Of a stretch of DNA of 64,000 bases, positions 1 through 13,353 are shown in pieces (positions within the stretch are counted from its first letter, which is position 1; each line of letters starts with the position of its first letter). The stretch is from positions 419,285 to 483,284 of the forward strand of contig CAWCXU010000002.1 of assembly GCA_963799625.1 (NCBI GenBank), given 5' to 3'. The DNA is from an uncultured Actinomycetes bacterium. Its GTDB lineage: Bacteria; Actinomycetota; UBA4738; HRBIN12. The position numbers and the translations under genes are program-made. Under the pieces are notes generated by a model. That model was not told the DNA's origin. It saw nothing but the letters and a program-made list of their open reading frames with translations, and made no database searches.

Positions 1-899
1 AACGATCCATTGAACACCTCGTCCTGGCCCAGCGACTGGGCGATCTCGGAAGGCGCATCGATCACGTGGGCCGGCACGGCCGCGAAGATCGCCATCACGA
101 TGGCGATGCCTGCGACCACGACGCCTGCTCTCGCGCGCCACGTTCGAACGAAGGACAGACCGAGCGCAACGGCGGCACCGCTTCCGAGGGCGAACAGGGC
201 CGTGTTCGACTTCGTGTCGACGATCGCGATCAACACGGGCACGAGCACGATGAACTTCGTGAGTCGCCGGCGCGGGACGGGCGACGCCCAGATGACGAAC
301 ACGGACAGGACGAGGTAGCTCCCGGCCATGTTCGGGTCACGGAAGGTGCCGTAGAACCGGTGGAACTGATCGACGATCTCATAGCCGAACACTCGCGGGG
401 GGTGCGCGCCGGACGATCCCGAGGCGAGGATCGCGAGCGCGCTCACGCCGAGCGCCGCGGCCGTCCAGGCGACCGCCGCCCAACGGAGCCCGCGATCGCC
501 GACGATCACGAGCGCGTTCAGCATCACGAGGAACCAGGCGAACAGATAGACGTCGGTCATCACGGCGACCAGCGCCACCGACGGGGCGATCGATTGGCCG
601 ACGGCAAGCAGCCCTCCACCGACGATCAGCAGGTTGCTCCACGCGAGAGGGATGTGGAAGGGCTGTCGCGCGCGGAGCAGACACGCCGTGCCCATCACCA
701 ACAGCAGCACGGCCGGGATGTCGGCTGGCACGCTGTTGTTCGGCCCACGTGGCACGAGGATCGGCAGGAACACCACGTTGAGCACCAGCAGCCAACGCAG
801 GATCGGCTCCATCGGACCGCTCCGGACCCGTCGGAGCTCGCGCGAGCCCTCTTCCGAGCCCTGCGGGATCCCCGCCCGATCGGCAACCGCTCGACTCAT
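1..899 (-). CDS. O-antigen ligase/Wzy-like polysaccharide polymerase family membrane protein, 3' end cut by the window edge
   Basis: Manual minus-strand translation gives a continuous multi-pass membrane protein (…LLVLNVVFLPIL…AWFLVMLNALVIVGDRGLRW…FYGTFRDPNMAGSYLVLSVFVIWASPV…IVDTKSNTALFALGSGAAVALG…) typical of the Wzy_C/O-antigen ligase family. Its ATG at 899-897 overlaps the TGA of the upstream GT (ATGA). The ORF track does not list it because it runs off the window edge. An alternative start is MEPILRW at 812. Confidence 0.6.
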   Translation of the reverse strand, partial: MSRAVADRAGIPQGSEEGSRELRRVRSGPMEPILRWLLVLNVVFLPILVPRGPNNSVPADIPAVLLLVMGTACLLRARQPFHIPLAWSNLLIVGGGLLAVGQSIAPSVALVAVMTDVYLFAWFLVMLNALVIVGDRGLRWAAVAWTAAALGVSALAILASGSSGAHPPRVFGYEIVDQFHRFYGTFRDPNMAGSYLVLSVFVIWASPVPRRRLTKFIVLVPVLIAIVDTKSNTALFALGSGAAVALGLSFVRTWRARAGVVVAGIAIVMAIFAAVPAHVIDAPSEIAQSLGQDEVFNGS

Positions 900-2065
900 G
901 CGTCCCCACGTCCCGTCGCTGCTCGCGCCAGACTTCCCGGTACATCTCGATCGACGCGTCCACCATATGCCCGGTGGAATACTCGGCCCCGACGAGATCG
1001 GCGATCGCCGTGCCGAGCGACTTCAGCTCCTGCTCGGAGCGTCAGGAGCTCGACCACCTGGTCCGCCAGGTCGTCGGGCCGGCCCCCGGCCCCGACGAGA
1101 CGCCCGGTCTCGCCGTCACGGACGACCTCCGAGACACCGCTCACGTCGGTCGAGACCACGGGGACCCCGGCCGCTCCCGCCTCGAGCACCGTCCGGGGCA
1201 GCCCCTCCCATGCGGAGGCGAGCACCAGGAGGTCCATCGCGGCGTACGCCGTCTCGATGTCGTTGCGGAATCCGACCACGTGGATCCGGGGCTCATCCTC
1301 CGTCGACGCGACCGCCTCCTCGAAGGACGGTCCGTCGCCCACCATCAGGAACGACGCTTCCGGCATCGTGCGCACCAACCGCCTTGCCACCTCGAGCACG
1401 ACCTCGGGTCGCTTCTGCGGGAAGTGTCTTCCCACCCAGCCCGCGACCGGTCCGTCGGTCGAGATGCCGAACGAACGCCGGGCTTCCTCGCGGGAGGGAA
1501 GGTTGCGGAACCGGTCGACGTCGATGCCGCTCGGGATGATCGCGATCTGCTCCGGACGCGCGAGGCGGAGCGCGACGAGCTCATCCGCGGTCGCGTGGCT
1601 CACCGCCACGATCCGGTCGCTCGCACGGGCGGCGCGTCGCTCCGCGGCGAGCAGTATCCCGCGCTCGGTGCCCGACATGTCCGGGTTCACCGGCAGGCCG
1701 TGACTCGTATGCACGATCACGGGAACCTTCGCCCGCCTGGCCGCGATCCGTCCGATCACGCCGGCCTTCGATGAATGCGTATGCACCACGTCGAACCCGC
1801 CGTCGCGGATCAGACGGCCCACTTCGCGGTAGGCGCGCGCATCGTCGGCCGGCGAGACCTGACGGACGAGATGCGGCAGGTGCACGAGCGGTACGTCGTC
1901 CGCCTCGAGCCGCTCTTGCATAGGGCCTCCGAGCTGTGAGCCCACCGTGACGTCGAAGCCACGACGACGCATCCCCCCGGCAAGTCCAACGACCGTCTCC
2001 TGGGCGCCGCCACGCTCGAGATGCGTGATCAGCAGCAGGATCTTCGGCCGTTCGGCTGTGCTCAT
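896..2065 (-). CDS. Group 1 glycosyltransferase (GT4 family)
   Basis: ORF 896..2173 with a likely true start MSTAERPKILLLITHLERGGAQE at 2065. Its ATG overlaps the stop of the upstream sulfotransferase (ATGA). The GT4 fold is supported by the C-terminal E…VPVVSTDVSGVSEVV motif region. Confidence 0.85.
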   Translation of the reverse strand: MSTAERPKILLLITHLERGGAQETVVGLAGGMRRRGFDVTVGSQLGGPMQERLEADDVPLVHLPHLVRQVSPADDARAYREVGRLIRDGGFDVVHTHSSKAGVIGRIAARRAKVPVIVHTSHGLPVNPDMSGTERGILLAAERRAARASDRIVAVSHATADELVALRLARPEQIAIIPSGIDVDRFRNLPSREEARRSFGISTDGPVAGWVGRHFPQKRPEVVLEVARRLVRTMPEASFLMVGDGPSFEEAVASTEDEPRIHVVGFRNDIETAYAAMDLLVLASAWEGLPRTVLEAGAAGVPVVSTDVSGVSEVVRDGETGRLVGAGGRPDDLADQVVELLTLRAGAEVARHGDRRSRRGRVFHRAYGGRVDRDVPGSLARAATGRGDA

Positions 2066-3016
2066 GCCGTCACCCCGTCCTGCTGCATCAGCCGGTAGTG
2101 GTATCGCAGCAAGAGAGGCCATGTGAGGGCCGTCACGAGCCGCCGGTCCCCGAGTCCGAGTTTCGTTATCCACTCGACGTCCGGACGGATGGTGAGTGGC
2201 CCCGACTCGAACCGGATCGGGTTGCCGGACACCGTGTGGCTCGAAGTGGGCGGCGACGTCTTCCCCGACACGACGTCGGCGACCGAGGCGGCCGCCTCGT
2301 CCGGCAGGAGCGCCGTGAGCATACCGACCGGATCACAGACGAGATCCTCGTACCGGATGCGATCGTACCGATCAACCTTGCGGCGGACCGCTTCCATCGC
2401 GACGTTCATCGACGACCAATCGAAGCAACTCCGCCACGGCGAGAAGAGCGACATGTCTTGCTCTTGCCAGTGGATCTCGGGGCGAGCCTTCTTCCGCTGC
2501 CACGAATATGCCACGGCGCGGCTATCCCGCACGAGGTGGATCGCGTGGACGCTGACCCTCGGCAACCGGGTGAGCAAGGCGCAATCCGTTGCGTACTTGG
2601 ACGAGTCGACGATCACCTGTCCACCCGTCACACGATCCACCGAGTGCAGGACGCGCTGCAAGGCGTCCAGGTACTCGTGCCGCTGCCTCCGCGTATCGGC
2701 CGACTCCAGGCCGACCCCCGATCTGAGCACCGGCATGGGGCGGGCCACGTCTCGCCATTGGGAGAGGTAGTGCTCCGGATCGAGCTCGTCGATCGGACCC
2801 AGAGCGCCCTTCATGACGTCTCGCCAGAAGGGGCACGAGCGGAAGGGCCTGCCGCAACCACATAGCTGGTTCCCCTGCAGCCCTCGCAACCATAGGTATC
2901 GCAACTCACCCGCAGCGAAATACCCAGGCAACGCGCCCAGCAACAATGAGAGGAGCGTGCTGCCAGTGCGGCTCGCTCCCCCGATGAAGATCGACCTTGG
3001 TGTCGGTTGGGGACAT
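2062..3016 (-). CDS. Sulfotransferase family protein with an apparent +1 frameshift at codon 3
   Basis: ORF 2062..2946 (TTG start in the track) carries the 3'-PB-like region (VIVDSSKY…HLVRDSRAVAYSW) but lacks the PAPS 5'-PSB motif. Extending the same frame upstream gives …PRSIFIGGASRTGSTLLSLLLGALPGY… (the 5'-PSB motif) with no in-frame canonical start. An ATG at 3016-3014 lies one frame off (ATGTCCCCAACC). Removing one C from the CCCC run yields MSQPTPRSIFIGGASRTGSTLL…. Confidence 0.7.
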
Positions 3017-3269
3017 AGGTGCCTATCCGTGGGTCTTGGGGAGACGATACAATCACCCTCCGGTCCTACGCTAGGGTCCGTACGCCCTACCCGGGAAGGG
3101 ATAACGAGATGGTCGAAGTCGCTCGCCCACTCAACAAGTGAGAACAGAAACTTGAAGGCCTAGTTTGGGCCTCCGAGCAGCAGTACCAGTACGAGGCTAC
3201 CCGTTGGGTGGTGCGTTCAACCGAGCCCGGATTCGTCGATCTCGTCGATAGCCTATCTCCACGATCACC

Positions 3270-4071
3270 GTGCCGGCGGGGAGCTCGGAGAAGCCGTCGA
3301 TGCTATCGGCCGACTGCGGCGCGGCGAAGAGCCTGCCCGGCCACATGAAGGTCGAGTCCAAGCTGACGCTCTACTTCGGCACAACCGCGATCTACCGAGG
3401 GTTCTCCCAGCTCGAGATGGCCGGGCGATTGATCCGATTCATGCGGAGCAACGGTTGGCGCTTCAGGAACGACTTCATCCGACTCGACGGCGGCTCCGTC
3501 GTCGTGGACGGCGGCGCGGTGCTGCTCCTGGGAGGCGGCGATCATCGTGTGGCCGCCATAGCTGCCAGGCTGGTCGCGGGCGGCGCCTCGCTGCTCGGGG
3601 ATGACATTACGGTCTGGGAGCCGGTTGACCGGCTGCTGCACCCGCTCGGGATGCCGATCGCGTTGGACGCCGATCTGGCTCACGAGGCCTTCCCTGAGAG
3701 CGTGCCACCCCCCGGCCGGCGTGTTCGAGTCAGGAACGATCGGGCCGCCGTTCCACGCATCTGGCCAGTACCTCTTCGCCCAGAGGAACTCGGAGGAGAC
3801 CAGGCGACGGGAGCCTGCGGCGATCCGGCACGTCTTCGTGGTTGACATGGTCGACGACGCTCCCACCACACTCGAGACGCTCAGTCTCTCTGAGGCGGTC
3901 TTCGCCGCATCCGCGTCCGTGCGCAACATCGAGATCTGGGGCGAGCGAGCCATGATCGCGTTCCGCGAGCTGTACCAGCACGTCCCGTTCTCGAGGCTCG
4001 TGACGAGCTCCATGGACGAGGCAGCTGACGCTGTGCGGCATTCGCTCCCGCACATGGATGGTGTCGCGTGA
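3270..4071 (+). CDS. HprK-related kinase paralog with a degenerate Walker A, carrying an apparent frameshift near 3700-3730
   Basis: Frame-0 ORF 3270..3845 reads …SVVVDGGAVLLLGGGDHRVAAIAARLVAGGASLLGDDITVWEP…PLGMPIALDAD…, an HprK C-terminal kinase-domain-like layout with a degenerate P-loop. The coherent continuation lies in frame 1 (ORF 3601..4071: …LFAQRNSEETRRREPAAIRHVFVVDMVDD…RELYQHVPFSRL…). Its TGA overlaps the GTG of the next gene (GTGA). Confidence 0.55.
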
Positions 4072-4966
4072 CGCAGATCGGGGAAGAGATCCCCTTGCAG
4101 GTTCGGGAATCGGAGAACCCGGTCGTCGACCCCTACCGCGTCATGTCGCTGCCTGCGACGCTGCGACATGGCGACAACCGGCTGCTCGAGGCTCTCAGAT
4201 GGCACCTCCGGCCGTTCGAGATCGCCCATCGCGAGCGCGAGTCGTATGAACTGGAAATCATGGAGACGAGGAAGGAGACGGCCGGACTACCCATGGCGAC
4301 TCACCTACCTCCGAGGCACGGTCCCCATGGTCTCGGGGTCCCCCTGCCGCCGTACTCGACTACGCCCTGTGGGACATCCATTCTCTCGTGTACCAGCACT
4401 GCATGGACTTCCTATTCCTGCATGCCGGCGCGGTCGCCGGCGGCGGGCGCCGAGTGATCCTGCCCGCCGCGCCGGAAACAGGGAAGTCGACGTTGGTGGC
4501 ATCGCTGCTCCGCCTAGGGTGCGAGTACCTCTCCGACGAGCTAGCGCCGATCGACCCTGTGACGGCGGGCGTCTATCCGTTTCCCAAGCACATCGCCGTC
4601 GCCAGATCCGGTTTGGAGTACATCACCGGCGGACCTCCAGAACTCCCGGACGACTACCCTCCCCTAACCGCGCAGCTCTCCAACCGATACCTCCGGCCGG
4701 GCGACCTGAAAGCCGTAGTCGCCGGCTCGGGATCGGTCGACATGATCGTGTTCCCGACGGATGATCGGGAAGGGACTCCCACACTTCAGGCCCTCTCCTC
4801 CTCGGAAACGATCGCGCGCCTCCTCGAACACACGCTCAACGCGGAGCTGTACGGGGACCGGACCTTGACGATGCTGACCAGAGCGTCCAGGGCTGCAGAG
4901 TCGTTCGAACTTACAGGAGGCTCCTCAGAGCAGCGAGCCGAACTCTTGCGCCAGGAACTCTTCTGA
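4068..4966 (+). CDS. HprK-related kinase with an intact Walker A (GKST), carrying an apparent frameshift near 4300-4340
   Basis: Frame-2 part …PPAAVLDYALWDIHSLVYQHCMDFLFLHAGAVAGGGRRVILPAAPETGKSTLVASLLRLGCEYLSDELAPIDP… has the HprK C-domain P-loop GxxGxGKST followed by G..LSDE. The N-terminal 80 aa (MTQIGEEIPLQVRESENPVVDPY…) are in frame 0 (ORF 4068..4457). The frame switch falls in a GGGG/CCCCC run. Confidence 0.65.
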
Positions 4967-4969
4967 AAC

Positions 4970-5009
4970 GCGCAAGGCCCCCCGGTTGGGAGGGCCCTGC
5001 GTAAACTAA
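4970..5009. terminator. GC-rich hairpin between convergent genes, a putative intrinsic terminator without a T-tract
   Basis: cgcaaggccc-(12-nt loop)-gggccctgcg gives a 10-bp stem with one mismatch. It lies immediately after the HprK-related gene stop and at the 3' end of the convergent minus-strand small gene. Confidence 0.4.
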
Positions 5010-5393
5010 CTTCGACTGCCTAGCAGACGAACTCGACCTGACCGTGTCCGCTCGACGTGTAGCAATCGGGGTCGCAGTAGTCGTCGGACGAGCACGGGTT
5101 GCAGTCTCCCTGGCCCACCGGACATGCCGCGTTGCAGATGTCGCTCGCATGGACCACCAAGCGCCGAGCCCGCTTGCGTACAAGCTGGCTTGCACCCGAA
5201 CGCGTTGGTGTCAGTCGGGTCTGAGTGGCAGCAGTTTCCCTGGGGCGGCGGGCCCGAAGCTCCGGTGGACGCCCTCGCGGCGCCCGCGACGACCGTCTGG
5301 ATCGCCGGAGCAGCGAAGATGACCACGCCGCCAGTAGCGGCCGCGCGCTTGATGAAGGACCGGCGGTTCACGCCTTGGCCCTCGGTGTGCTCA
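5006..5393 (-). CDS. Small Tat-signal secreted Cys-rich protein of unknown function, with an apparent frameshift near 5130
   Basis: A GTG start at 5393 is preceded by AAGGAGGGGG. The protein begins MENTEHTEGQGVNRRSFIKRAAATGGVVIFAAPAIQTVVAGAARA, where RRSFIK is a twin-arginine motif. It continues …GNCCHSDPTDTNAFGCKPACTQAGSALGGPC. The +1 frame then reads …ASDICNAACPVGQGDCNPCSSDDYCDPDCYTSSGHGQVEFVC*. Together these give 12 or more Cys in about 90 mature residues. Confidence 0.55.
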
Positions 5394-5620
5394 GTGTTCT
5401 CCACCTGAACCCCCTCCTTCTCTTGTCTGGAGCCCAGGCTAGGGACCCGGCTCGGCCGCCGAATCGCCGTGCTGACGTATCTTCCGTGACGGCCCCGGGC
5501 GGAGCGGCACTCCTCAAACCCGCTGGTCAGGGGCACCGGACGGCGCCCAACTACGACGAACAGCGTACGTCGCGCCTCGCACCCTTCCTGCGGGATGCCC
5601 GCCTGGGATACGCTCCCACG

Positions 5621-6840
5621 ATGCCCCCCAGCTTCGTGCACCGCGCCCTGATCGACGCCGCGCGTGATGAGCTGGATCCATCTCGGGTCGAGGGGGCCAC
5701 CGAGGCCGAGCGTCACGAGCTCCTCATCCGGAGCCGGGACCATGCGGTGCAGGGGCTGGTCGCCCGTTCGGTCCGCCGGGCCGGGGACCTCGAACCCTGG
5801 GCGCTCCCGTTCGTCCAGGACGCGATCGGGATCCGAGAGTCGCATGCACAGCACGTCCGGACGCTCCGGACCGCCTCGTTCGCCCTCGAACGAGCACGAG
5901 GTGCCGGGGCTCCTCATGAAGGGCGCGTCGCTGGTCGATCGCTACTACCACGACGACTCCCTCCGGGCGTACGGCGACGTCGACATGCTCGTTCCCTCCC
6001 AACGGTTCGCCGACGCGTTGTCGATCCTGGAGGAGGCCGGGTTCTCGATCCTCGACCGCAACTGGCACATGCTCCGTGCGGGATATGCGAGGCCAGCTCC
6101 ACCTGCGCTCCCCCGACGGTCACGACATGCTGGAGCTGCACTGGCATCCGATCAATCCGAGCCGGGTCCGCCACACCCTTTCGGTGACCGCGAACGACCT
6201 TTGGTCCGGCGCGTCGCGAACCCGAGTCGCGGGGCGGACGTGTGGGTGCCGCACACGTCCCGCGAGCTGGCCCACCTCTGCCTGCACGCCGCGCTGCACG
6301 GTTGTGACCGCCTGATCTGGCTGGTCGACATCCACAAGGTCATGGACTCCCCCGATCTCGACCTGGACGACCTGCAACGCACCGCACGTCACTGGGGGTT
6401 CGGCGCGGGGACCTATCTCGTGCTCGCCTTGGTCGATCGGTGGCTCGGGCTCTCGCAGCCCCTACGGGATCTCTCGCAGGCTCCACCCGGGCCGCGCCAC
6501 CCTCGCCGCGTTCCACCGGCTGGTCGACCGGTGGGACCTCGGCCGGCCCGCTCGCGACGCGCGGTTCCGGCAGCTGCTCTTCGCGACCGCGGCCGACGGC
6601 GTGGGGCGCCGCGCCAGGCTGACCTGGTCACTCGTGGTGCCGCCGGACGTCAGCGATCCGGATGCGGGCAGGGAGCCACTCGGCCCGCTGCTTTCCAGGA
6701 TGACGATCGGCGCGGCGACCAGGGTCCGGCACAAGCTCGACGAGCATGCCGAGGACGATGCGGCACCCGAATTCCTTCGGCGAGGGGACCCTGCCGTCGG
6801 ACGCGTCCGGTATCTGGCGCGCGTCGCATCCGAACGATAA
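5621..6840 (+). pseudogene. Nucleotidyltransferase family protein (PF14907-like, uncharacterised NTase), disrupted by four or more frame switches
   Basis: Family-typical segments fall in different frames. MPPSFVHRALIDAARDELDPSRVEG…LRTASFALERARGAG is in frame 2. …LLMKGASLVDRYYHDDSLRAYGDVDMLVPSQRFADALSILEEAGFSILDRNWHML is in frame 0. GQLHLRSPDGHDMLELHWHPINPSRVRHTLSVTANDLWSGASRTRVAG is in frame 1. ADVWVPHTSRELAHLCLHAALHGCDRLIWLVDIHKV…LGLSQPLRDL is in frame 0. …ATLAAFHRLVDRWDLGRPARDARFRQLLFATAADG…RVRYLARVASER* is in frame 1. The switches sit in G/C runs (for example ggtgccggggctcc and gcggggcggacg). Confidence 0.7.
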
Positions 6841-6862
6841 GGCATCAGGTCACCGTGATCTG

Positions 6863-8515
6863 CTACGGAGCCGGTGGTAGCTCCCACCGGCTCTCGGCGC
6901 GCGCCGCCTCGTCGTGGTTGTCCGTGCCGTATGGGTCGAGGTCCAGGCTCACCGGCGCCCCTGCGCGCTTCCCGCTGCCGTAGCCCTGCATCCTGCGATA
7001 TCCGGTCAGCTTCCCCAGCTTGATCCCGTTCAGGACGATGCCAACGACATGGGCGTCGTGACGCTGCAGCAGGTCGACACAGTCCTCCATCTCGTCTTCC
7101 AAGGTGACGCCTTGCCGCACGACGACGATCGCCGCGTCGGCCTCTCCGGCGAGCACGATGGCATCCGCGGTGTGGAGCAACGGCGGCGTGTCGATCACGA
7201 CGACGTCGTAGTCGGTCTCCAGGCGCGCGATCGAGCCGATGATCAGGTCCTGTCGCCATCCCGTCTCCCCGGGCATCAGAAAGATCTCGTCGAATCCCAT
7301 CGGATCCGAACGCTTCCGCATCGGCGCCGACGCCCCCCCGGGCGCGGCGGCGGCCTCGAATGTCTTGCGGCGACGGCGCGGCACCGAGTCCGCAACGTCG
7401 GCATGGAACAGGGCCGTCCGCTGCGACGAGGCGGCGTACGACGACGCCAGGTTCGCCGCGATCGTCGACTTCCCCTCCCCGGTCGACGCGCTCACGATCG
7501 CGACCGTGCGGAGGTCGCCGTGATCGCCCAACCTCGACGCTTGCATCCGCAACTCGGCACGGAGCATCGAGATGGACTCGGCTCCCCACGCGGATCGACG
7601 CTGCACGAGCAGCGGTTGGTGTCGCACCGCCCGCGCGCGACCCACCTTGGGGATCGTCGCGAGGATCGGCAGGCCGAGCTCTTCGACCTGCTGACGCCCG
7701 AGGATCTTCGGTCGCACGACACCGAGGGTGAGCGCCAAGGCGATGCCGAGCAGCAAGCCGGCCATCGGGAACAGGAGGAGTCGCAGTGTCCCCGTCGGGA
7801 TCGGTTCCGACGCCGTGCTGAACGGCTTGCTGAGCAGGAGGTAGTTCGTCTCCGCCAGACTGTTCCCGAGCACGATGCTCTCGCGGAAGGCGACGTGCTG
7901 CTGGTACAGGCTGCTGACGGCCTGGTATTCCGTGGAGGTGACCTGCGTGGATGCGTGATTCGCCTGTTCTTGATCGAGCTCGTGGGACAGTTCGTCGAGA
8001 CGAGCCTGCAAGCTGGCGATGCGCGTGTCCACGCTGGCGAGCACCTGATCGACCCGCGTCTGATCTTGCTTGCGCCGATAGTCCACGTAGTTGGAGGCAT
8101 ACGCCGCGAGCTCGTCTGAGATCGCGGGGCTGTCGCCGGTGATCGAGAGGTTGATCACGGGCGCCCCGGGCTCGCCGTCCGCGGTGAGGTTGGTGAGCAG
8201 GGAGTCGCCACCGTCGGTCATCCCCAACTGTTGGGCGGTCGAAGCAGCGACGTCGACCGATACGGCGGCCTGCACCTCCGATGCAGGTACCGTGAGCGAC
8301 GAGGATGACGACACGCCCGTCTGGTCGAACTGCAACGGGCGGATCTCGATGGGCACCGTCGCCGTGTAGGTGCGGGTCGGGGCCCCGGGCCGCGTGACGA
8401 GCGCGAGGAGGAGGCCGCAGACCGTGAGGGCGAGGATCAACCACTTCCGATCCCAGATCATCCGGATGTAGTCGCCCGCGGGCGGTGACCCCTGCTGCTT
8501 CGCGTGTGTCGGCAC
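6863..8515 (-). CDS. Polysaccharide biosynthesis tyrosine autokinase (Wzz-like chain-length domain fused to a CpsD/CapB P-loop; Wzc-like BY-kinase)
   Basis: 550-aa ORF with an N-terminal TM and a periplasmic coiled-coil. A second TM is followed by Walker A SASTGEGKST, then VVVIDTPPLL and a Tyr-containing C-terminal tail (GYRRMQGYGSG…DLDPYGTD). Confidence 0.85.
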   Translation of the reverse strand: MPTHAKQQGSPPAGDYIRMIWDRKWLILALTVCGLLLALVTRPGAPTRTYTATVPIEIRPLQFDQTGVSSSSSLTVPASEVQAAVSVDVAASTAQQLGMTDGGDSLLTNLTADGEPGAPVINLSITGDSPAISDELAAYASNYVDYRRKQDQTRVDQVLASVDTRIASLQARLDELSHELDQEQANHASTQVTSTEYQAVSSLYQQHVAFRESIVLGNSLAETNYLLLSKPFSTASEPIPTGTLRLLLFPMAGLLLGIALALTLGVVRPKILGRQQVEELGLPILATIPKVGRARAVRHQPLLVQRRSAWGAESISMLRAELRMQASRLGDHGDLRTVAIVSASTGEGKSTIAANLASSYAASSQRTALFHADVADSVPRRRRKTFEAAAAPGGASAPMRKRSDPMGFDEIFLMPGETGWRQDLIIGSIARLETDYDVVVIDTPPLLHTADAIVLAGEADAAIVVVRQGVTLEDEMEDCVDLLQRHDAHVVGIVLNGIKLGKLTGYRRMQGYGSGKRAGAPVSLDLDPYGTDNHDEAARAESRWELPPAP

Positions 8516-8516
8516 G

Positions 8517-8852
8517 TCAGCGATCCTCTTCGCTCGCGTCCTCGATCAACCCGAGCGCTTCGAACTCTCCGACGAGGCTTCCGACCTGCTCCTGGACCTG
8601 ACCACGGTCGAGCTCGTATTCGTCCGCGATGTCACTGCTGATCTGTTCCACCGACCCCTCGCCGTCGCAGAGCTGCCACACCAGGGCCGCCGACGGATTG
8701 AGGTGGTGGACGAGACTCGAGCCCCTGTTGAACAGGACGAGTCCATCCTCCATGTCGAGGTCGAGCACATCGGCGCATTTCGTCGGGATGTACCCGCCTG
8801 AGATCTCGAGGGGATCGGAAGGCGCCGGGTCGAGGGGTACCTGTTCGTTCAT
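8517..8852 (-). CDS. PqqD-family protein (RRE-type peptide-binding chaperone domain)
   Basis: 111-aa product MNEQVPLDPAPSDPLEISGGYIPTKCADVLDLDMEDGLVLFNRGSSLVHHLNPSAALVWQLCDGEGSVEQISSDIADEYELD… matches the PqqD/RRE pattern (…lvL.n..sg.i..LN.sa..vW.l.dG..sv.ei…). Its ATG at 8852 overlaps the sugar-transferase stop (8849). Its stop abuts the BY-kinase start. Confidence 0.75.
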   Translation of the reverse strand: MNEQVPLDPAPSDPLEISGGYIPTKCADVLDLDMEDGLVLFNRGSSLVHHLNPSAALVWQLCDGEGSVEQISSDIADEYELDRGQVQEQVGSLVGEFEALGLIEDASEEDR

Positions 8853-9889
8853 GACATGTGATCGATCGTGCTGGGCGCGGTCAGTACCAGCTTCGTGGTC
8901 TTGAAGAGGATCTCGATGTCGAAACGTAGCGTTCGGTGGATCAGATGGAACATGTCGTACTGATGGGTGAGGTACTTGGCCTTCACCGAGTTCCCGTAGC
9001 CGACGTTCAGCGTACCCCACCCGGTCATCCCGGGACGAACCGAGTGTCGCACGTCGTATTGGGGAACGTGTTGTTCGAGGAGCTCCACGAACGCCGGGCG
9101 CTCGGGCCTCGGCCCGATCAACGACATATCCCCCTTCAACACGTTGATGAACTGCGGGAACTCGTCGATCCGGTACTTGCGGAGCACCGCGCCGACGCGC
9201 GTCACGCGGTCGTCGTCGGCCTCGGCCCATCGAGGACCTGCACGCTCGGCATCGATCTCCATCGTGCGGAACTTCACGATCCGGAACGGTCGCTTGTCTC
9301 GTCCGATCCGCTCCTGCTTGAACAGGACCGGTCCTCGGTCGTCCAGCCAGATCGCGACAGCCACGAACGGGAGCAACACGAACAAGAGCAGGCACCCGAG
9401 GATCCCGCCGACGATGTCGATGGTCCTGGACACGATCCGACCGAAAAGACCTGCAGCCTTGGGCACCTCGGTCGCGCCCTCCAACGACGCGATGCGGTAC
9501 CGGCTCTTCGCGAGGCTGCGGACGCTCGTGATGCCGACGCCGGCATCCAGCAATCGGCGCACGACATCCACCGTAGCCGGTGTGACGGTCTCGGTGTGCA
9601 GCGTCACGACGACGGTGTCGTCATCGAGATCGAAGATCGGGAACGCGCCATCCGGTTCGACAAGCTCGACATCCGGCTGCACGCGTAGCCAGTCGGGCGC
9701 CTCGTTGCCGAGGACGATCACCTGGCCGGTTTGGATGACCCGCCTTGTCATCCGCCTCGGCTGGGACTGTTTGGGAAAGGCTTCATCGCGCTCGGTTCGA
9801 AGGACGGTCAAAGGGGTGACCTCCGATAGCTCGATGGGGTGGGATGGGCGCTCATCATAGTGCGAGTCGCCGGGTGCGAGATAGCGCAA
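8849..9889 (-). CDS. Polyprenyl glycosylphosphotransferase (bacterial sugar transferase, WbaP/WcaJ-like short form)
   Basis: A single TM (IVGGILGCLLLFVLLPFVAVAIWL) is followed by the PF02397 signature …RIVKFRTM…DEFPQFINVLKGDMSLIGPRP…. An alternative start is MTRRVIQ at 9751. Confidence 0.85.
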   Translation of the reverse strand: MRYLAPGDSHYDERPSHPIELSEVTPLTVLRTERDEAFPKQSQPRRMTRRVIQTGQVIVLGNEAPDWLRVQPDVELVEPDGAFPIFDLDDDTVVVTLHTETVTPATVDVVRRLLDAGVGITSVRSLAKSRYRIASLEGATEVPKAAGLFGRIVSRTIDIVGGILGCLLLFVLLPFVAVAIWLDDRGPVLFKQERIGRDKRPFRIVKFRTMEIDAERAGPRWAEADDDRVTRVGAVLRKYRIDEFPQFINVLKGDMSLIGPRPERPAFVELLEQHVPQYDVRHSVRPGMTGWGTLNVGYGNSVKAKYLTHQYDMFHLIHRTLRFDIEILFKTTKLVLTAPSTIDHMS

Positions 9890-9966
9890 CTTGGTCGCAG
9901 CTGGACTACGCCATCTGTACTAGAAATGGGTTCCTACCGGCATCTTGTGAACGTACTATCCACATC

Positions 9967-10647
9967 ATGGTTCGCGTAATCGTCGCCGATCCACAACCCT
10001 TCTTTCGCCAAGCATTCATGACCGCGTTGGCACACGAGACAGGGTTCGAGCCGCTGGACGATTCCGGCGACGAGATCGAGACGGCCGCAACGGCGGTGGA
10101 GGGAGCCGCGGATCTCATCCTGACCGAGATCGAACTCGCCGGCGGCTCCGGGCTGCACCTGCCGGCCCGGATCGGGGCCAGCGTCCCGGTGATCGTGGTC
10201 ACGCGCCACCATGAGGCGGAGGTGCTGATGGACGTGGCGGTCTCGGGGGCCGTGGGATGCATCAGTCATGCGGTTGGTCTCAAGCGCGTCGTCGAACTGC
10301 TGCGCGGCTTCCGGCCCGGCCGTTTCTGTGTCGATGACGAGCGCCTGCTCGAGATCCTTCGCCAGGCCGGACGCGCTCCGGTCCAGGAGAGCGACAACCT
10401 CCGGAGGCTGACCGTGCGAGAGCGTGAGGTCCTTGTCAGGCTCTCCTCGGGTGCAACCGACGACGCCATCGCGGAGTCGCTGTACATCAGCCGTCATACC
10501 GTTCGGACGCACGTCGGGAACATCCTGCGGAAGCTCGGCGTGCACTCTCGGGCTCAGGCCGCTCGCCTCGCGCTCGCAGCCGATCCGGATCGGCGGTCGC
10601 AGCCGGACGTGTTGCGGATCGATGGCCCTGGCTGGGGAAGCGATTGA
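9967..10647 (+). CDS. LuxR-family (NarL/FixJ-type) response regulator with an atypical receiver domain
   Basis: MVRVIVADPQPFF…DLILTEIELAGGSG…VIVVTRHHE… is followed by a LuxR HTH (LTVREREVLVRLSSGATDDAIAESLYISRHTVRTHVGNILRKLGV). The position aligned to the phospho-acceptor Asp appears to be Glu (LTEIEL). Confidence 0.8.
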   Translation: MVRVIVADPQPFFRQAFMTALAHETGFEPLDDSGDEIETAATAVEGAADLILTEIELAGGSGLHLPARIGASVPVIVVTRHHEAEVLMDVAVSGAVGCISHAVGLKRVVELLRGFRPGRFCVDDERLLEILRQAGRAPVQESDNLRRLTVREREVLVRLSSGATDDAIAESLYISRHTVRTHVGNILRKLGVHSRAQAARLALAADPDRRSQPDVLRIDGPGWGSD

Positions 10648-10683
10648 ACCTCGACGGGGAGAACGTCGGCGGCCGACAGGCCA

Positions 10684-11294
10684 TGATCGTGTCGGGGGAC
10701 CCGCTCTTCCGCGACGCCGCGGCCGCTCACCTCAGATCGCACGGGTGGCTCGTCCCGACGTGCGAATCCGACGGGATGCGGGCGCTCTCCCTGCTCACTC
10801 GACAACCCATCGACGCCATCCTCATCATCGGGGAGGTGGCGCGGATCGGGGGCGCCGCACTCAAAACCGAGGTTGGGCGTCGGTGGCCGGAGATCGTGGT
10901 GGTCACGCTTCCCAACGGCTACCCGTCGGGAGAGAACGACGTCGCACTCGAGGCCGACACCGACGAGGTCCTGGCCTCGTTGGGGTCGCCGACGCCGCCG
11001 GGCCCGACCCTAGACCCGAACTCGGACCCCGTCGTCTTGCGGCTCGCCTCGTTGACACCGAGGGAACGGACGATCCTGCGAGGACTCGGGAATGGCGAGA
11101 CGCCGGCCGAGATCGCCGAGGGCCTCGGCCTGAGCGGGCATACCGTCCGCTCCCACCTAGCGAACCTCCACCACAAGCTCGACGTGCATCGACGGGTCGA
11201 ACTCGTCCGGCTCGCCGCCGTTGCGGGACTCGTCAGCGAGGAGGCCGATCACGGACGATCGGGCACGGCTGCGGATGAACCTGCGGGCCGCTGA
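10684..11294 (+). CDS. Second LuxR-family response regulator with an atypical receiver domain
   Basis: MIVSGDPLFRDAAAAHL…IDAILIIGEVARIGG…VVVTLPNG… plus a LuxR HTH (LTPRERTILRGLGNGETPAEIAEGLGLSGHTVRSHLANLHHKLDV). The track ORF starts at TTG 10644, which overlaps the previous stop (TTGA). The ATG at 10684 fits a receiver N-terminus. Confidence 0.75.

Positions 11295-11384: not shown

Positions 11385-13353
<1,969 letters not shown>

What the first reader, a model, noticed from the sequence alone, without database searches (positions are those of the whole stretch)
8517..8852. PqqD/RRE-type peptide chaperone translationally coupled between a BY-kinase and the priming glycosylphosphotransferase
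The ATG of the PqqD-like gene overlaps the stop of the sugar-transferase gene, and its own stop abuts the Wzc-like kinase start. It is therefore co-translated with core EPS machinery. RRE domains normally recruit leader peptides to RiPP enzymes. An RRE in an EPS operon suggests that a peptide or protein partner is recruited to the polysaccharide assembly complex, or that the kinase module acts on an EPS protein.
Basis: partly seen in the sequence, partly recalled or inferred. Interest (0 to 1): 0.55.

Follow-up and report, generated by a model that had tools for sequence, protein, structure and literature searches.

The report
Peptide-binding chaperone inside a polysaccharide operon
A small PqqD-type peptide-binding protein really is wedged into a polysaccharide-export operon, but its conserved partners across related genomes are an HPr-kinase-like enzyme pair and a small secreted cysteine-rich protein with an unusually conserved export leader, which points to an undescribed leader-guided protein-modification system linked to glycan loci.

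Summary
Window 8852..8517 (-) encodes a 111-aa PqqD/RRE protein. Its ATG overlaps the stop of the Bac_transf gene (ATGA), and its stop lies 1 nt before the GTG of the Wzc-like gene. Pfam PqqD scores 57.8 bits. AF2 gives an RRE fold that matches lasso B1 proteins (TM 0.84).

NCBIfam places it above cut-off in TIGR04353, the "HPr-rel-A system PqqD family peptide chaperone". The other components lie within 5.5 kb: an HprK-like kinase, a P-loop-less paralogue, an NTP_transf_5 nucleotidyltransferase and a 127-aa Tat-signal, Cys-rich protein. They look broken only because this assembly carries private 1-nt indels.

I analysed 67 related loci, all from Actinomycetota MAGs or metagenomes. In 41 of the 52 with enough downstream sequence, the small Tat-leader gene directly follows PqqD, and it is followed by convergent HprK genes. 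The Bac_transf–PqqD–Wzc sandwich occurs in 11 of the 67, within one sub-clade. Natural PqqD–HprK fusions exist. The leader is shared by about 718 protein clusters with unrelated cores.

Best reading (0.55): this is the leader-binding subunit of a kinase/nucleotidyltransferase system that modifies the small protein before Tat export. In this lineage it is co-expressed with EPS machinery. Binding and chemistry are untested. I found no literature on it.

The parts
8517..8852 (-). PqqD/RRE-type peptide chaperone, 111 aa (the finding)
   Evidence: PF05402 57.8 bits. TIGR04353 41.4 bits against a cut-off of 35. AF2 pLDDT 81.6. Foldseek top hit TbiB1 5v1v, TMt 0.84, rmsd 1.7. 0 nt differences across 7 sibling assemblies.
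8849..9751 (-). Priming polyprenyl-phosphate sugar-phosphate transferase (Bac_transf). 300 aa as called on sibling contigs; alternative upstream starts reach 9889.
   Evidence: PF02397 200 bits. TIGR03025 259 bits, below the cut-off of 295. Its stop overlaps the PqqD ATG. Gene calls.
6863..8515 (-). Wzc-like polysaccharide co-polymerase/P-loop ATPase, 550 aa
   Evidence: Weak Wzz domain plus ParA/CbiA/AAA_31 P-loop hits. TIGR01007 67 bits, below the cut-off of 108. Walker A GEGKST and VVVIDTPP read. The GTG lies 1 nt after the PqqD stop.
5621..6840 (+). NTP_transf_5 nucleotidyltransferase, 405 aa in the consensus. Frameshifted in this window by private indels at 5888, 6077, 6234 and 6477.
   Evidence: The consensus protein scores PF14907 132 bits. 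Indels, coordinates. It converges on the Wzc-like gene with a 22-nt gap.
5020..5404 (-). Small secreted Cys-rich protein, 127 aa, with a twin-arginine-type leader. Proposed substrate. The window has an extra G near 5146.
   Evidence: TIGR01409 Tat signal 19.2 bits against a cut-off of 16.7. Leader conserved and core hypervariable. Immediately downstream of PqqD in 41 of 52 related loci.
4068..4966 (+). HprK-related kinase (HprKA), 298 aa in the consensus. Window frameshifts at 4281 and 4334.
   Evidence: TIGR04352 84 bits, E 9e-24, below the equivalog cut-off of 200. GKS[ST] P-loop and YLSDE conserved in 22 of 22 sequences. P0241 is 98% identical.
3345..4071 (+). HprK-like paralogue without a P-loop (HprK2, probable pseudokinase), 241 aa in the consensus. 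Window frameshift at 3805. Its stop overlaps the HprKA start.
   Evidence: TIGR04352 23.5 bits. The GKS motif is replaced by LPSxPxPHLPAL or GGGDHRV in 17 of 17 sequences.
2072..3025 (-). Sulfotransferase-like protein, 317 aa in the consensus
   Evidence: PF13469 40 bits. Sulfotransferases also accompany HPr-kinase/nucleotidyltransferase lasso clusters.
896..1885 (-). GT4 glycosyltransferase. It is followed, beyond window position 812, by a Wzy_C polymerase/ligase-type gene.
   Evidence: gene tables.
10018..11294 (+). Two LuxR/GerE-family regulators, the first with a receiver domain, divergent from the Bac_transf-PqqD-Wzc operon
   Evidence: and gene tables. LuxR genes flank the module in most related loci.

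Best explanation
The 111-aa protein is the leader-peptide-binding (RRE) subunit of an HprK-family kinase / NTP_transf_5 modification system. This is the actinobacterial form of what NCBIfam calls the HPr-rel-A system.

Proposed mechanism:
1. The RRE binds the unusually conserved twin-arginine-type leader (RRxFLRKAA..AWAAPVIQTVAATPAFA) of the small Cys-rich protein encoded at 5404..5020.
2. It presents that protein to the active kinase HprKA, probably paired with its P-loop-less paralogue HprK2, for Ser/Thr phosphorylation in the cytoplasm.
3. NTP_transf_5 may then extend the phosphate, by analogy with the phospho-glycosylation of the lasso peptide pseudomycoidin.
4. The modified protein is exported by Tat and its leader is cleaved at AxA.

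In this lineage the RRE gene has been captured between the priming sugar transferase and the Wzc-like gene. Its synthesis is therefore tied to EPS-operon expression by ATGA termination-reinitiation.

Shown: gene identity, RRE fold, junctions, synteny statistics, gene fusions, and the pattern of a conserved leader with variable cores.
Inferred: RRE-leader binding, phosphorylation, the NTP_transf_5 chemistry, Tat export, and any functional link to the polysaccharide.
For: Identity of the protein:
- PF05402 57.8 bits. TIGR04353 scores 41.4 bits against a cut-off of 35.
- AF2 RRE fold, with lasso B1/leader complexes 5v1v and 6jx3 as best PDB matches.
- The most conserved residues (LDMxDG, LVHHLNPSA, E96/L100/L102) fall on the beta1-beta2 hairpin (29-42), beta3 (48-51) with the start of helix 1, and helix 3 (83-99) of the model. 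The beta3/helix-3 face is the one that holds leaders in known RREs (from my own knowledge of the 5v1v and 6jx3 complexes).

All system components are present within 5.5 kb once assembly indels are corrected.

Synteny over 67 related loci:
- The small Tat-leader gene lies directly downstream of PqqD in 41 of 52 informative loci.
- HprK and the small gene are both present in 15 of 15 loci with at least 6 kb of downstream sequence.

PqqD-kinase link:
- Natural PqqD-HprK fusion proteins P0276 and P0281 (hhalign probability 88%).
- Next to the P0281 fusion lie a 56-aa Tat-like-leader peptide and NTP_transf_5.

Leader behaviour:
- The leader is near-invariant while cores are hypervariable, even between strains.
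- A profile search finds 718 clusters. Many match only the leader and have short Ser/Thr-rich cores.
- In 3 of 3 such peptide loci, a full-length HprKA orthologue converges on the peptide gene.

Precedent: HPr-kinase homologues phosphorylate lasso precursor peptides, and a nucleotidyltransferase glycosylates the phosphate (PMC8498205).
Against: - No binding, docking or chemistry was tested.
- Leader-peptide plus HprKA pairs exist on contigs with no PqqD nearby (L043-L045, L120-L122). The RRE is therefore not obligatory in cis, and the kinase's own N-terminal domain might read the leader instead.
- The window's leader is the most divergent in the family (VVIFAAPAIQTVVAGAARA instead of AAAWAAPVIQTVAATPAFA).
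- HprKA reaches only 84 bits against the TIGR04352 cut-off of 200.
- The small proteins do not end in Ser, unlike known lasso kinase substrates.
- In this lineage the tight coupling is to Bac_transf and the Wzc-like gene, not to the small gene. That could reflect a different or additional partner.
Confidence: 0.55

Rival explanations
1. The RRE serves the NTP_transf_5 nucleotidyltransferase rather than, or as well as, the kinase. It would deliver the peptide or protein substrate for nucleotidylylation or glycosyl-phosphate transfer.
For: In L037 and L038 a second, divergent PqqD (92-96 aa) sits directly upstream of NTP_transf_5 inside the polysaccharide operon. The window lineage has only one PqqD gene, with NTP_transf_5 just beyond the Wzc-like gene. 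In one sub-clade NTP_transf_5 is divergent from PqqD.
Against: The window-type PqqD is fused to HprK, not to NTP_transf_5, in P0276 and P0281. tblastn detected NTP_transf_5 in only 4 of 12 loci with at least 6 kb of sequence on both sides, whereas HprK was found in 15 of 15 loci with at least 6 kb downstream. NTP_transf_5 is divergent, so that count is a lower bound.
Confidence: 0.2
2. The RRE has been co-opted to bind a segment of the EPS machinery itself, for example the roughly 100-aa soluble N-terminal region of Bac_transf (as called, 300 aa) or the C-terminal tail of the Wzc-like protein. It would regulate priming or chain-length control.
For: The ATGA overlap and 1-nt spacing suggest stoichiometric co-production. 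Bac_transf-PqqD-Wzc is frozen at 99-100% DNA identity among strains while the neighbouring module diverges. The sandwich arrangement recurs in 11 of 67 related loci, plus L036.
Against: The sandwich is a derived arrangement confined to one sub-clade. In most loci PqqD is not adjacent to either gene. The PqqD sequence motifs are the same in sandwich and non-sandwich members. Fusions and synteny point to HprK and the small protein instead.
Confidence: 0.12
3. The conserved leader is read by dedicated export or processing machinery, or by the kinase's own N-terminal domain. PqqD would then be only a hold-back chaperone for the Tat signal, like TorD or NapD, and would not present substrate to any enzyme.
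For: Leader-peptide plus HprKA pairs occur without a nearby PqqD. The leader fits the Tat consensus.
Against: PqqD-HprK fusions argue for a physical RRE-enzyme unit. All characterised RREs hand substrates to enzymes (from my own knowledge).
Confidence: 0.08
4. It is an ordinary RiPP or cofactor PqqD (a lasso B1 protein or the PqqD of PQQ biosynthesis), or a decaying or mis-called ORF.
For: The best structural matches are lasso B1 proteins. The neighbouring kinase and nucleotidyltransferase genes look frameshifted in the window.
Against: No Asn-synthase-like cyclase, transglutaminase-type B2, radical SAM or pqqA/B/C/E genes appear in any gene table within 10 kb. NF033530 scores 38 against a cut-off of 70, and TIGR03859 scores 25 against 46. 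The frameshifts are private assembly indels absent from 7 sibling assemblies. The ORF is fully conserved and has a coding signature.
Confidence: 0.03

Closest known systems
HPr-rel-A system (NCBIfam TIGR04353 PqqD_rel_X with TIGR04352 HprK-related kinase A; uncharacterised, no paper found)
   Same: The window protein passes the TIGR04353 cut-off (41.4 against 35). An HprK-related kinase and a PF14907 nucleotidyltransferase are encoded nearby. JGI and NCBI name its homologues accordingly.
   Different: The kinase scores far below the TIGR04352 equivalog cut-off (84 against 200). There is an additional P-loop-less kinase paralogue. A Tat-leader Cys-rich protein is a conserved neighbour. The genes are split over convergent operons, and the RRE is inserted in an EPS operon. 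As far as I could find, no substrate has been proposed for the named system.
Lasso-peptide B1 RRE with tailoring HPr-kinase homologue and nucleotidyltransferase (paeninodin, pseudomycoidin clusters)
   Same: RRE fold (TbiB1 5v1v, TfuB1 6jx3). Same enzyme set: HPr-kinase homologue, PF14907-type nucleotidyltransferase and sulfotransferase (PMC8498205).
   Different: There is no lasso cyclase or B2 protease. The candidate substrate is a 100-160-aa Tat-signal protein that does not end in Ser. The lasso PqqD models are not passed.
PqqD of PQQ biosynthesis
   Same: Pfam family and fold (5sxy, 3g2b).
   Different: No pqqA/B/C/E genes nearby. TIGR03859 scores 25 bits against a cut-off of 46.
SynChlorMet cassette pair ScmC/ScmD (Pfam PF27840 ScmC; TIGR04248 ScmD)
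   Same: It pairs an HprK-like protein with a PqqD-like protein. Several HprKA relatives carry PF27840. The window PqqD hits TIGR04248 weakly (28 bits).
   Different: No radical SAM/SPASM enzymes nearby. TIGR04248 is far below its cut-off of 100.
Tat signal-binding proofreading chaperones (TorD, DmsD, NapD)
   Same: Functional analogy only. These are small cytoplasmic proteins proposed to hold a twin-arginine signal peptide until cytoplasmic maturation is complete.
   Different: Unrelated folds. The analogy is inferred and untested.
Wzy-dependent EPS loci with a Wzc-type co-polymerase/tyrosine kinase and a Bac_transf priming enzyme
   Same: The flanking genes and the wider locus (GT4, Wzy_C, Polysacc_synt) fit this type.
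   Different: I found no report of an RRE between the priming transferase and Wzc. The Wzc-like protein is below the TIGR01007 cut-off and has only 3 Tyr in its tail.

Membership tests
PqqD / RiPP recognition element (PF05402) | Sequence match above Pfam's gathering score | tested here: met
   57.8 bits against 23.4, E 1.4e-15, profile positions 2-67 of 67
PqqD / RiPP recognition element (PF05402) | Winged-helix fold: a three-stranded beta sheet followed by three helices | tested here: met
   AF2 pLDDT 81.6. Strands 29-33, 38-42 and 48-51; helices 53-61, 68-79 and 83-99. Foldseek: 5v1v TMt 0.84, rmsd 1.7 A, E 1.7e-4; also 5sxy and 6jx3.
PqqD / RiPP recognition element (PF05402) | Binds a leader peptide along beta3/helix 3 | not testable with these tools
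Only conservation on that face is available.
HPr-rel-A system PqqD (TIGR04353) | Score at or above the curated equivalog cut-off | tested here: met
   41.4 bits against 35. Homologues P0014 and P0038 score 40.9 and 37.5.
HPr-rel-A system PqqD (TIGR04353) | Encoded with HprK-related kinase A (TIGR04352) | tested here: inconclusive
   The kinase homologue at 4068..4966 scores 84 bits, E 9e-24, over profile positions 83-278 of 280. That is below the equivalog cut-off of 200.
HPr-rel-A system PqqD (TIGR04353) | Encoded with a PF14907 nucleotidyltransferase. That this is part of the system is my recollection, supported by L041 and L042. | tested here: met
   The consensus NTP_transf_5 scores 132 bits. 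The same trio is seen in L041 and L042.
Lasso peptide B1 chaperone | Passes the lasso PqqD models NF033530 or NF033536 | tested here: not met
   38.4 against 70, and 23.0 against 80
Lasso peptide B1 chaperone | Neighbouring lasso cyclase (Asn-synthase-like) and B2 transglutaminase-type protease | tested here: not met
   Neither appears in the Pfam-annotated gene tables within 10 kb on L001-L007, L036, L037 or L038.
PQQ biosynthesis PqqD | TIGR03859 cut-off and pqqA/B/C/E neighbours | tested here: not met
   25.2 bits against 46. No pqq genes in the gene tables.
Twin-arginine (Tat) signal peptide (for the proposed substrate at 5404..5020) | S/T-R-R-x-F-L-K motif, hydrophobic region and AxA site; TIGR01409 cut-off | tested here: met
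   19.2 bits against 16.7. RR, F and an AxA-type site are conserved in 60 homologues. Actual Tat export was not testable.
BY-kinase / PCP-2 Wzc (for the downstream neighbour) | Wzz domain, Walker A/A'/B ATPase and a C-terminal tyrosine cluster; TIGR01007 cut-off | tested here: inconclusive
   Walker motifs are present. Wzz scores 22.3 bits against 25.5. TIGR01007 scores 67 against 108. There are only 3 Tyr in the tail.

The most novel reading that the evidence does not exclude
A twin-arginine signal peptide doubles as a RiPP-style leader. A PqqD-type RRE, stand-alone here and fused to the kinase elsewhere, would read the conserved Tat leader of a large family of small secreted proteins and peptides. 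That family spans about 718 sequence clusters with hypervariable Cys-rich or Ser/Thr-rich cores. The RRE would hold them in the cytoplasm for HprK-type phosphorylation and NTP_transf_5-dependent phospho-glycosylation, after which Tat exports the modified product. In soil Actinomycetota this system is wired into polysaccharide loci, so the product could be a glycan-linked or matrix-associated protein whose core diversifies between strains.
Probability: 0.3. Interest if true: 0.8.

Novelty: new variant of a known kind. Interest (0 to 1): 0.6.

Why it matters
RREs are the handle by which RiPP enzymes find their substrates, and they are used to mine genomes for new natural products. Three things follow if the inference holds.

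1. A named but uncharacterised cassette, the HPr-rel-A system, gains a concrete candidate substrate class. That class is a family of small secreted proteins with a shared Tat-type leader and hypervariable cores. This makes the system directly testable by binding assays, mass spectrometry after co-expression, and tests of Tat dependence.
2. It would extend leader-guided modification from short peptides to 100-160-aa Tat-exported proteins.
3. It would show kinase/nucleotidyltransferase tailoring working without a lasso scaffold.

The repeated embedding in glycan loci, and here inside the Bac_transf–Wzc operon, also hints at a link between secreted-protein modification and exopolysaccharide production in uncultured soil Actinomycetota. 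If the inference fails, the finding is simply a catalogued PqqD-family gene in an unusual operon position.

Tried and rejected
1. Pseudogene or decaying-locus idea. The window's HprK, NTP_transf_5 and small genes are frameshifted. Alignment with 7 sibling assemblies shows about 16 private 1-nt indels, and GroEL is likewise split on some sibling contigs. These are assembly errors, so I rejected the idea.

2. AF2 of a PqqD-(GGGGS)6-leader fusion with a paired 18-row alignment, to test docking.

3. tblastn of HprKA against annotated plasmids, to see a PGAP-annotated canonical HPr-rel-A locus. There was one weak hit, in a Methylosinus plasmid, with an uninformative context.

4. Literature searches for HPr-rel-A/TIGR04352/TIGR04353, SynChlorMet/ScmC/ScmD, Tat plus RiPP plus RRE, PqqD plus exopolysaccharide, and PDB codes 9X8Z/9X90. 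Nothing relevant came back except lasso reviews.

5. Fold of the Cys-rich core. AF2 gave pLDDT 76-89 for the mature part, but there was no PDB match. Its function remains open.

6. PDB sequence searches for HprKA and NTP_transf_5. These gave only P-loop-level hits or none.

7. Promoter and terminator, Rfam and tRNA scans. Nothing was found.

8. Co-variation between PqqD and the leader. The leader is too invariant, and the differences follow phylogeny, so I did not pursue it.

9. N-terminal RRE in the proteobacterial kinase P0286. The hhalign match was not significant (E 0.035), so I make no such claim.
Full report
**1. The observation.**
The window is 70% G+C. On the minus strand, an ATG at 8852 opens a 111-codon ORF that ends with TGA at 8519-8517.

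- The ATG overlaps the TGA (8851-8849) of the upstream Bac_transf gene as ATGA.
- One nucleotide after the ORF's stop, the GTG at 8515 starts a 550-aa Wzc-like gene.
- There is no Shine-Dalgarno sequence before the ATG. A GAAGAGGA Shine-Dalgarno-like site for the Wzc-like gene lies within the last codons of the ORF.
- GC by codon position is 0.71/0.37/0.80 inside the ORF. It is 0.85/0.62/0.38 in the same frame upstream of the ATG, so the ATG is the real start.
- Pfam PqqD scores 57.8 bits, E 1.4e-15. Bac_transf scores 200 bits. The Wzc-like protein has a weak Wzz domain plus a ParA/MinD-type P-loop.
- Gene callers on ten sibling metagenome contigs place the same three genes with the same junctions.

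**2. Fold.**
AF2 with a 42-sequence alignment gives pLDDT 81.6, with strands at 29-33, 38-42 and 48-51 and helices at 53-61, 68-79 and 83-99. The best Foldseek hits in the PDB are RREs:

- the lasso B1 protein TbiB1 bound to its leader (5v1v, E 1.7e-4, TMt 0.84, rmsd 1.7 Å);
- PqqD (5sxy);
- the B1 protein 6jx3.

The "fragment of the sugar transferase" alternative is excluded. All 128 homologues are stand-alone proteins of 89-158 aa.

**3. The family is already named.**
The best NCBIfam model is TIGR04353, "HPr-rel-A system PqqD family peptide chaperone", at 41.4 bits against a cut-off of 35. The lasso, PQQ, SynChlorMet and GeoRSP PqqD models are all below their cut-offs. JGI and NCBI give most homologues that name. 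I found no paper that mentions the system.

**4. The partner genes are next door, hidden by assembly errors.**
Between 3.3 and 6.9 kb the window shows only fragmentary ORFs. Alignment with seven sibling assemblies (93-99% identical) reveals about 16 one-base indels private to the window: 9900, 9895, 9879, 6477, 6234, 6077, 5888, 5543, 4981, 4334, 4281, 3805, 3288, 2992, 1043 and 939. There is also an extra G in the small gene. GroEL is split on some sibling contigs too, so these are long-read assembly errors and not pseudogenes. The consensus encodes the following genes:

- HprK2, 3345..4071 (+), 241 aa. TIGR04352 23 bits, with a degenerate P-loop.
- HprKA, 4068..4966 (+), 298 aa. TIGR04352 84 bits, E 9e-24, below the equivalog cut-off of 200. 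Walker A is PETGKST.
- A 127-aa protein, 5404..5020 (-), with a Tat signal (TIGR01409 19.2 against 16.7) and 12 Cys.
- NTP_transf_5, 5621..6840 (+), 405 aa, PF14907 132 bits. It converges on the Wzc-like gene with a 22-nt gap.
- A Sulfotransfer_3-like protein, 2072..3025 (-).
- GT4, with Wzy_C further on.

Two LuxR-family regulators are divergent from Bac_transf.

**5. Conserved context.**
A scan of one genome per species gave 25 loci, all from uncultured Actinomycetota MAGs. A metagenome scan gave 42 more loci of the close family. tblastn with the corrected proteins, plus a leader regex, gave these counts:

| Subset of loci | Result |
|---|---|
| 52 loci with at least 500 nt downstream of PqqD | 41 have a small Tat-leader gene immediately downstream on the same strand; 7 have a Wzc-like gene; 4 have neither |
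| 15 loci with at least 6 kb downstream | all 15 contain both HprK and the small gene |
| All 67 loci | 11 have the Bac_transf → PqqD → Wzc sandwich (as do the window's own strain cluster and L036) |

The usual order is PqqD → small gene → ← HprKA ← HprK2 → LuxR. In a neighbour-joining tree of PqqD the sandwich loci fall in one sub-clade, so the arrangement is derived.

The link with glycan loci is broader. In L037 and L038 the PqqD is divergent from an operon of Polysacc_synt_2, a Wzc-like gene, UDP-glucose dehydrogenase, a second PqqD, NTP_transf_5, and glycosyltransferases with a methyltransferase (L037) or an ABC transporter (L038). A Wzc-like gene lies within 8-10 kb in 9 of 12 loci with sequence on both sides. 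No gene table shows a lasso cyclase, a B2 protease, a radical SAM enzyme or pqq genes.

**6. The RRE is linked to the kinase.**
A profile search with HprKA found two natural fusions:

- P0276, 401 aa: PqqD at residues 19-94 and HprK at 187-398.
- P0281, 397 aa: PqqD at residues 25-89 and HprK at 203-390.

hhalign of P0281 against the PqqD profile gives 88% probability and E 3e-6. Next to P0281 lie a 56-aa ORF with a Tat-like leader and a convergent NTP_transf_5. In the alphaproteobacterium Marinivivus, a 61-aa Tat-like-leader ORF precedes HprK and NTP_transf_5.

Several HprKA relatives carry Pfam PF27840 (ScmC), the HprK-like partner of the PqqD-like ScmD. HprKA keeps GKS[ST] and YLSDE in 22 of 22 sequences. 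HprK2 lacks the P-loop in 17 of 17. This suggests an active kinase paired with a pseudokinase.

**7. The candidate substrate.**
The small proteins share a near-invariant leader (RRxFLRKAAxTGAAAAWAAPVIQTVAATPAFAQ..GTP…CxHS), followed by a hypervariable core with 8-14 Cys. This is far more conserved than ordinary Tat signals, where only the RR motif is shared (my own knowledge).

Between strains, the leader DNA is kept while the core is rewritten with indels. The region from NTP_transf_5 to the sulfotransferase is 72-97% identical among siblings, whereas Bac_transf-PqqD-Wzc is 99-100% identical and PqqD has 0 differences.

A profile search of 1.84 billion representatives found 718 clusters (75 at E ≤ 1e-10). 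Many match only the leader and carry unrelated cores. These include 57-80-aa peptides with Ser/Thr-rich, acidic or Lys-rich tails. In 3 of 3 such peptide loci that I looked up, a full-length HprKA orthologue (E 1e-90 to 1e-95) converges on the peptide gene. Those short contigs show no PqqD.

AF2 of a family member models the Cys-rich part at pLDDT 76-89, with no PDB match.

**8. Mechanism.**
The known precedent comes from Firmicute lasso clusters. There an HPr-kinase homologue phosphorylates the precursor's C-terminal Ser, a nucleotidyltransferase adds hexoses to the phosphate (pseudomycoidin), and sulfotransferases co-occur (PMC8498205).

By analogy, and from the synteny, the fusions and the leader/core pattern, I propose the following. 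The RRE binds the Tat-type leader and presents the small protein to HprKA/HprK2 and NTP_transf_5 in the cytoplasm. Tat export and leader cleavage follow. The ATGA overlap ties RRE synthesis to EPS-operon translation in this lineage. Everything beyond gene identity, fold, synteny and fusions is inference.

Main caveats:
- Peptide-HprKA pairs exist without a nearby PqqD.
- The window's own leader is divergent.
- The small proteins do not end in Ser.
- Docking could not be run.

**9. Rivals.**
- The RRE mainly serves NTP_transf_5 (0.2). The second PqqD sits next to NTP_transf_5 in L037 and L038.
- The RRE binds Bac_transf or the Wzc-like protein (0.12). This is supported only by the tight coupling and the frozen operon in one sub-clade.
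- The RRE is a pure Tat hold-back chaperone (0.08).
- It is an ordinary lasso or PQQ PqqD, or a decaying ORF (0.03). This fails the membership tests and the assembly comparison.

**10. Novelty.**
The protein is a member of a catalogued but uncharacterised family. The following appear undescribed in the literature I could search:
- its insertion into an EPS operon;
- the pseudokinase partner;
- the large Tat-leader substrate family implied by the data.

I rate it a new variant of a known kind, with interest 0.6. The stronger reading is that a Tat signal is used as an RRE-read leader for phospho(glyco)sylation before export. That reading has a probability of about 0.3 and would deserve an interest of about 0.8.

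Noticed in passing
window 939-9900 (private indels at 939, 1043, 2992, 3288, 3805, 4281, 4334, 4981, 5543, 5888, 6077, 6234, 6477, 9879, 9895, 9900, plus an extra G near 5146): The window carries about 17 one-base indels that are absent from seven sibling assemblies. They frameshift the HprK2, HprKA, small-protein, NTP_transf_5 and sulfotransferase genes. These look like long-read assembly errors rather than pseudogenes. None falls in 6478-9878 (Wzc-like, PqqD, most of Bac_transf).
   Followed up: yes
window 2100-6830 compared with 6830-9626 (against L001-L007): Strain diversity is mosaic. Bac_transf-PqqD-Wzc is 99-100% identical among strains, and PqqD has 0 nt differences. The adjacent NTP_transf_5, small-gene, HprKA, HprK2 and sulfotransferase block is 72-97% identical. 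L007 drops to 72-80% over 3686-5243. This suggests recombination or diversifying selection on the variable module.
   Followed up: partly
window 5020-5404 (-); L011-L035, P0121-P0432: The small-protein leader (RRxFLRKAA..AWAAPVIQTVAATPAFA) is shared by about 718 protein clusters with unrelated cores. These include 57-80-aa peptides with Ser/Thr-rich, acidic or Lys-rich tails. The pattern of one leader with many cores is typical of RiPP precursors.
   Followed up: partly
window 3345-4071 (+): The HprK2 paralogue has lost the GKS P-loop in all 17 homologues examined, yet it is conserved and its stop overlaps the HprKA start. It is probably a pseudokinase partner.
   Followed up: partly
P0276, P0281; L041 8001-9194: Natural single-chain fusions of a PqqD domain to an HprK-related kinase. 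In L041 the fusion is followed by a 56-aa Tat-like-leader ORF and a convergent NTP_transf_5, with no polysaccharide genes nearby.
   Followed up: yes
L037 4801-5079 (-); L038 3541-3831 (-): A second, divergent PqqD (92-96 aa, not reaching TIGR04353) sits directly upstream of NTP_transf_5 inside a polysaccharide operon of Polysacc_synt_2, a Wzc-like gene and UDP-glucose dehydrogenase. The window lineage has only one PqqD.
   Followed up: partly
window 6840-6863: The convergent NTP_transf_5 and Wzc-like genes end only 22 nt apart, with no terminator-like hairpin. Their transcripts probably overlap antisense.
   Followed up: no
L120 3002-3880 (-); L122 4987-5838 (-): In two short-peptide/HprKA loci, a Hanks-type Ser/Thr protein kinase (Pkinase) is divergent from the leader-peptide gene. 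This makes it a second recurring kinase neighbour.
   Followed up: no
L035 4675-5190 and 5473-5886; L044 5626-5952 (+) and 6893-7390 (-): Some loci carry two Tat-leader Cys-rich genes. They are in tandem in L035 and flank the kinase in L044. This fits multi-substrate cassettes.
   Followed up: no
window 11385-13001 (-) and gene tables of L001-L007: GroES and GroEL lie just beyond the two LuxR regulators in the window lineage and in L036. The EPS/PqqD locus therefore sits next to a core housekeeping operon.
   Followed up: no
PDB 9x8z_B, 9x90_B: The closest solved sequence to the family profile is an entry named "PqqD family protein" (9x8z chain B, E 4.6e-6). I found no paper that mentions it. 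Its partner chain may be informative.
   Followed up: partly
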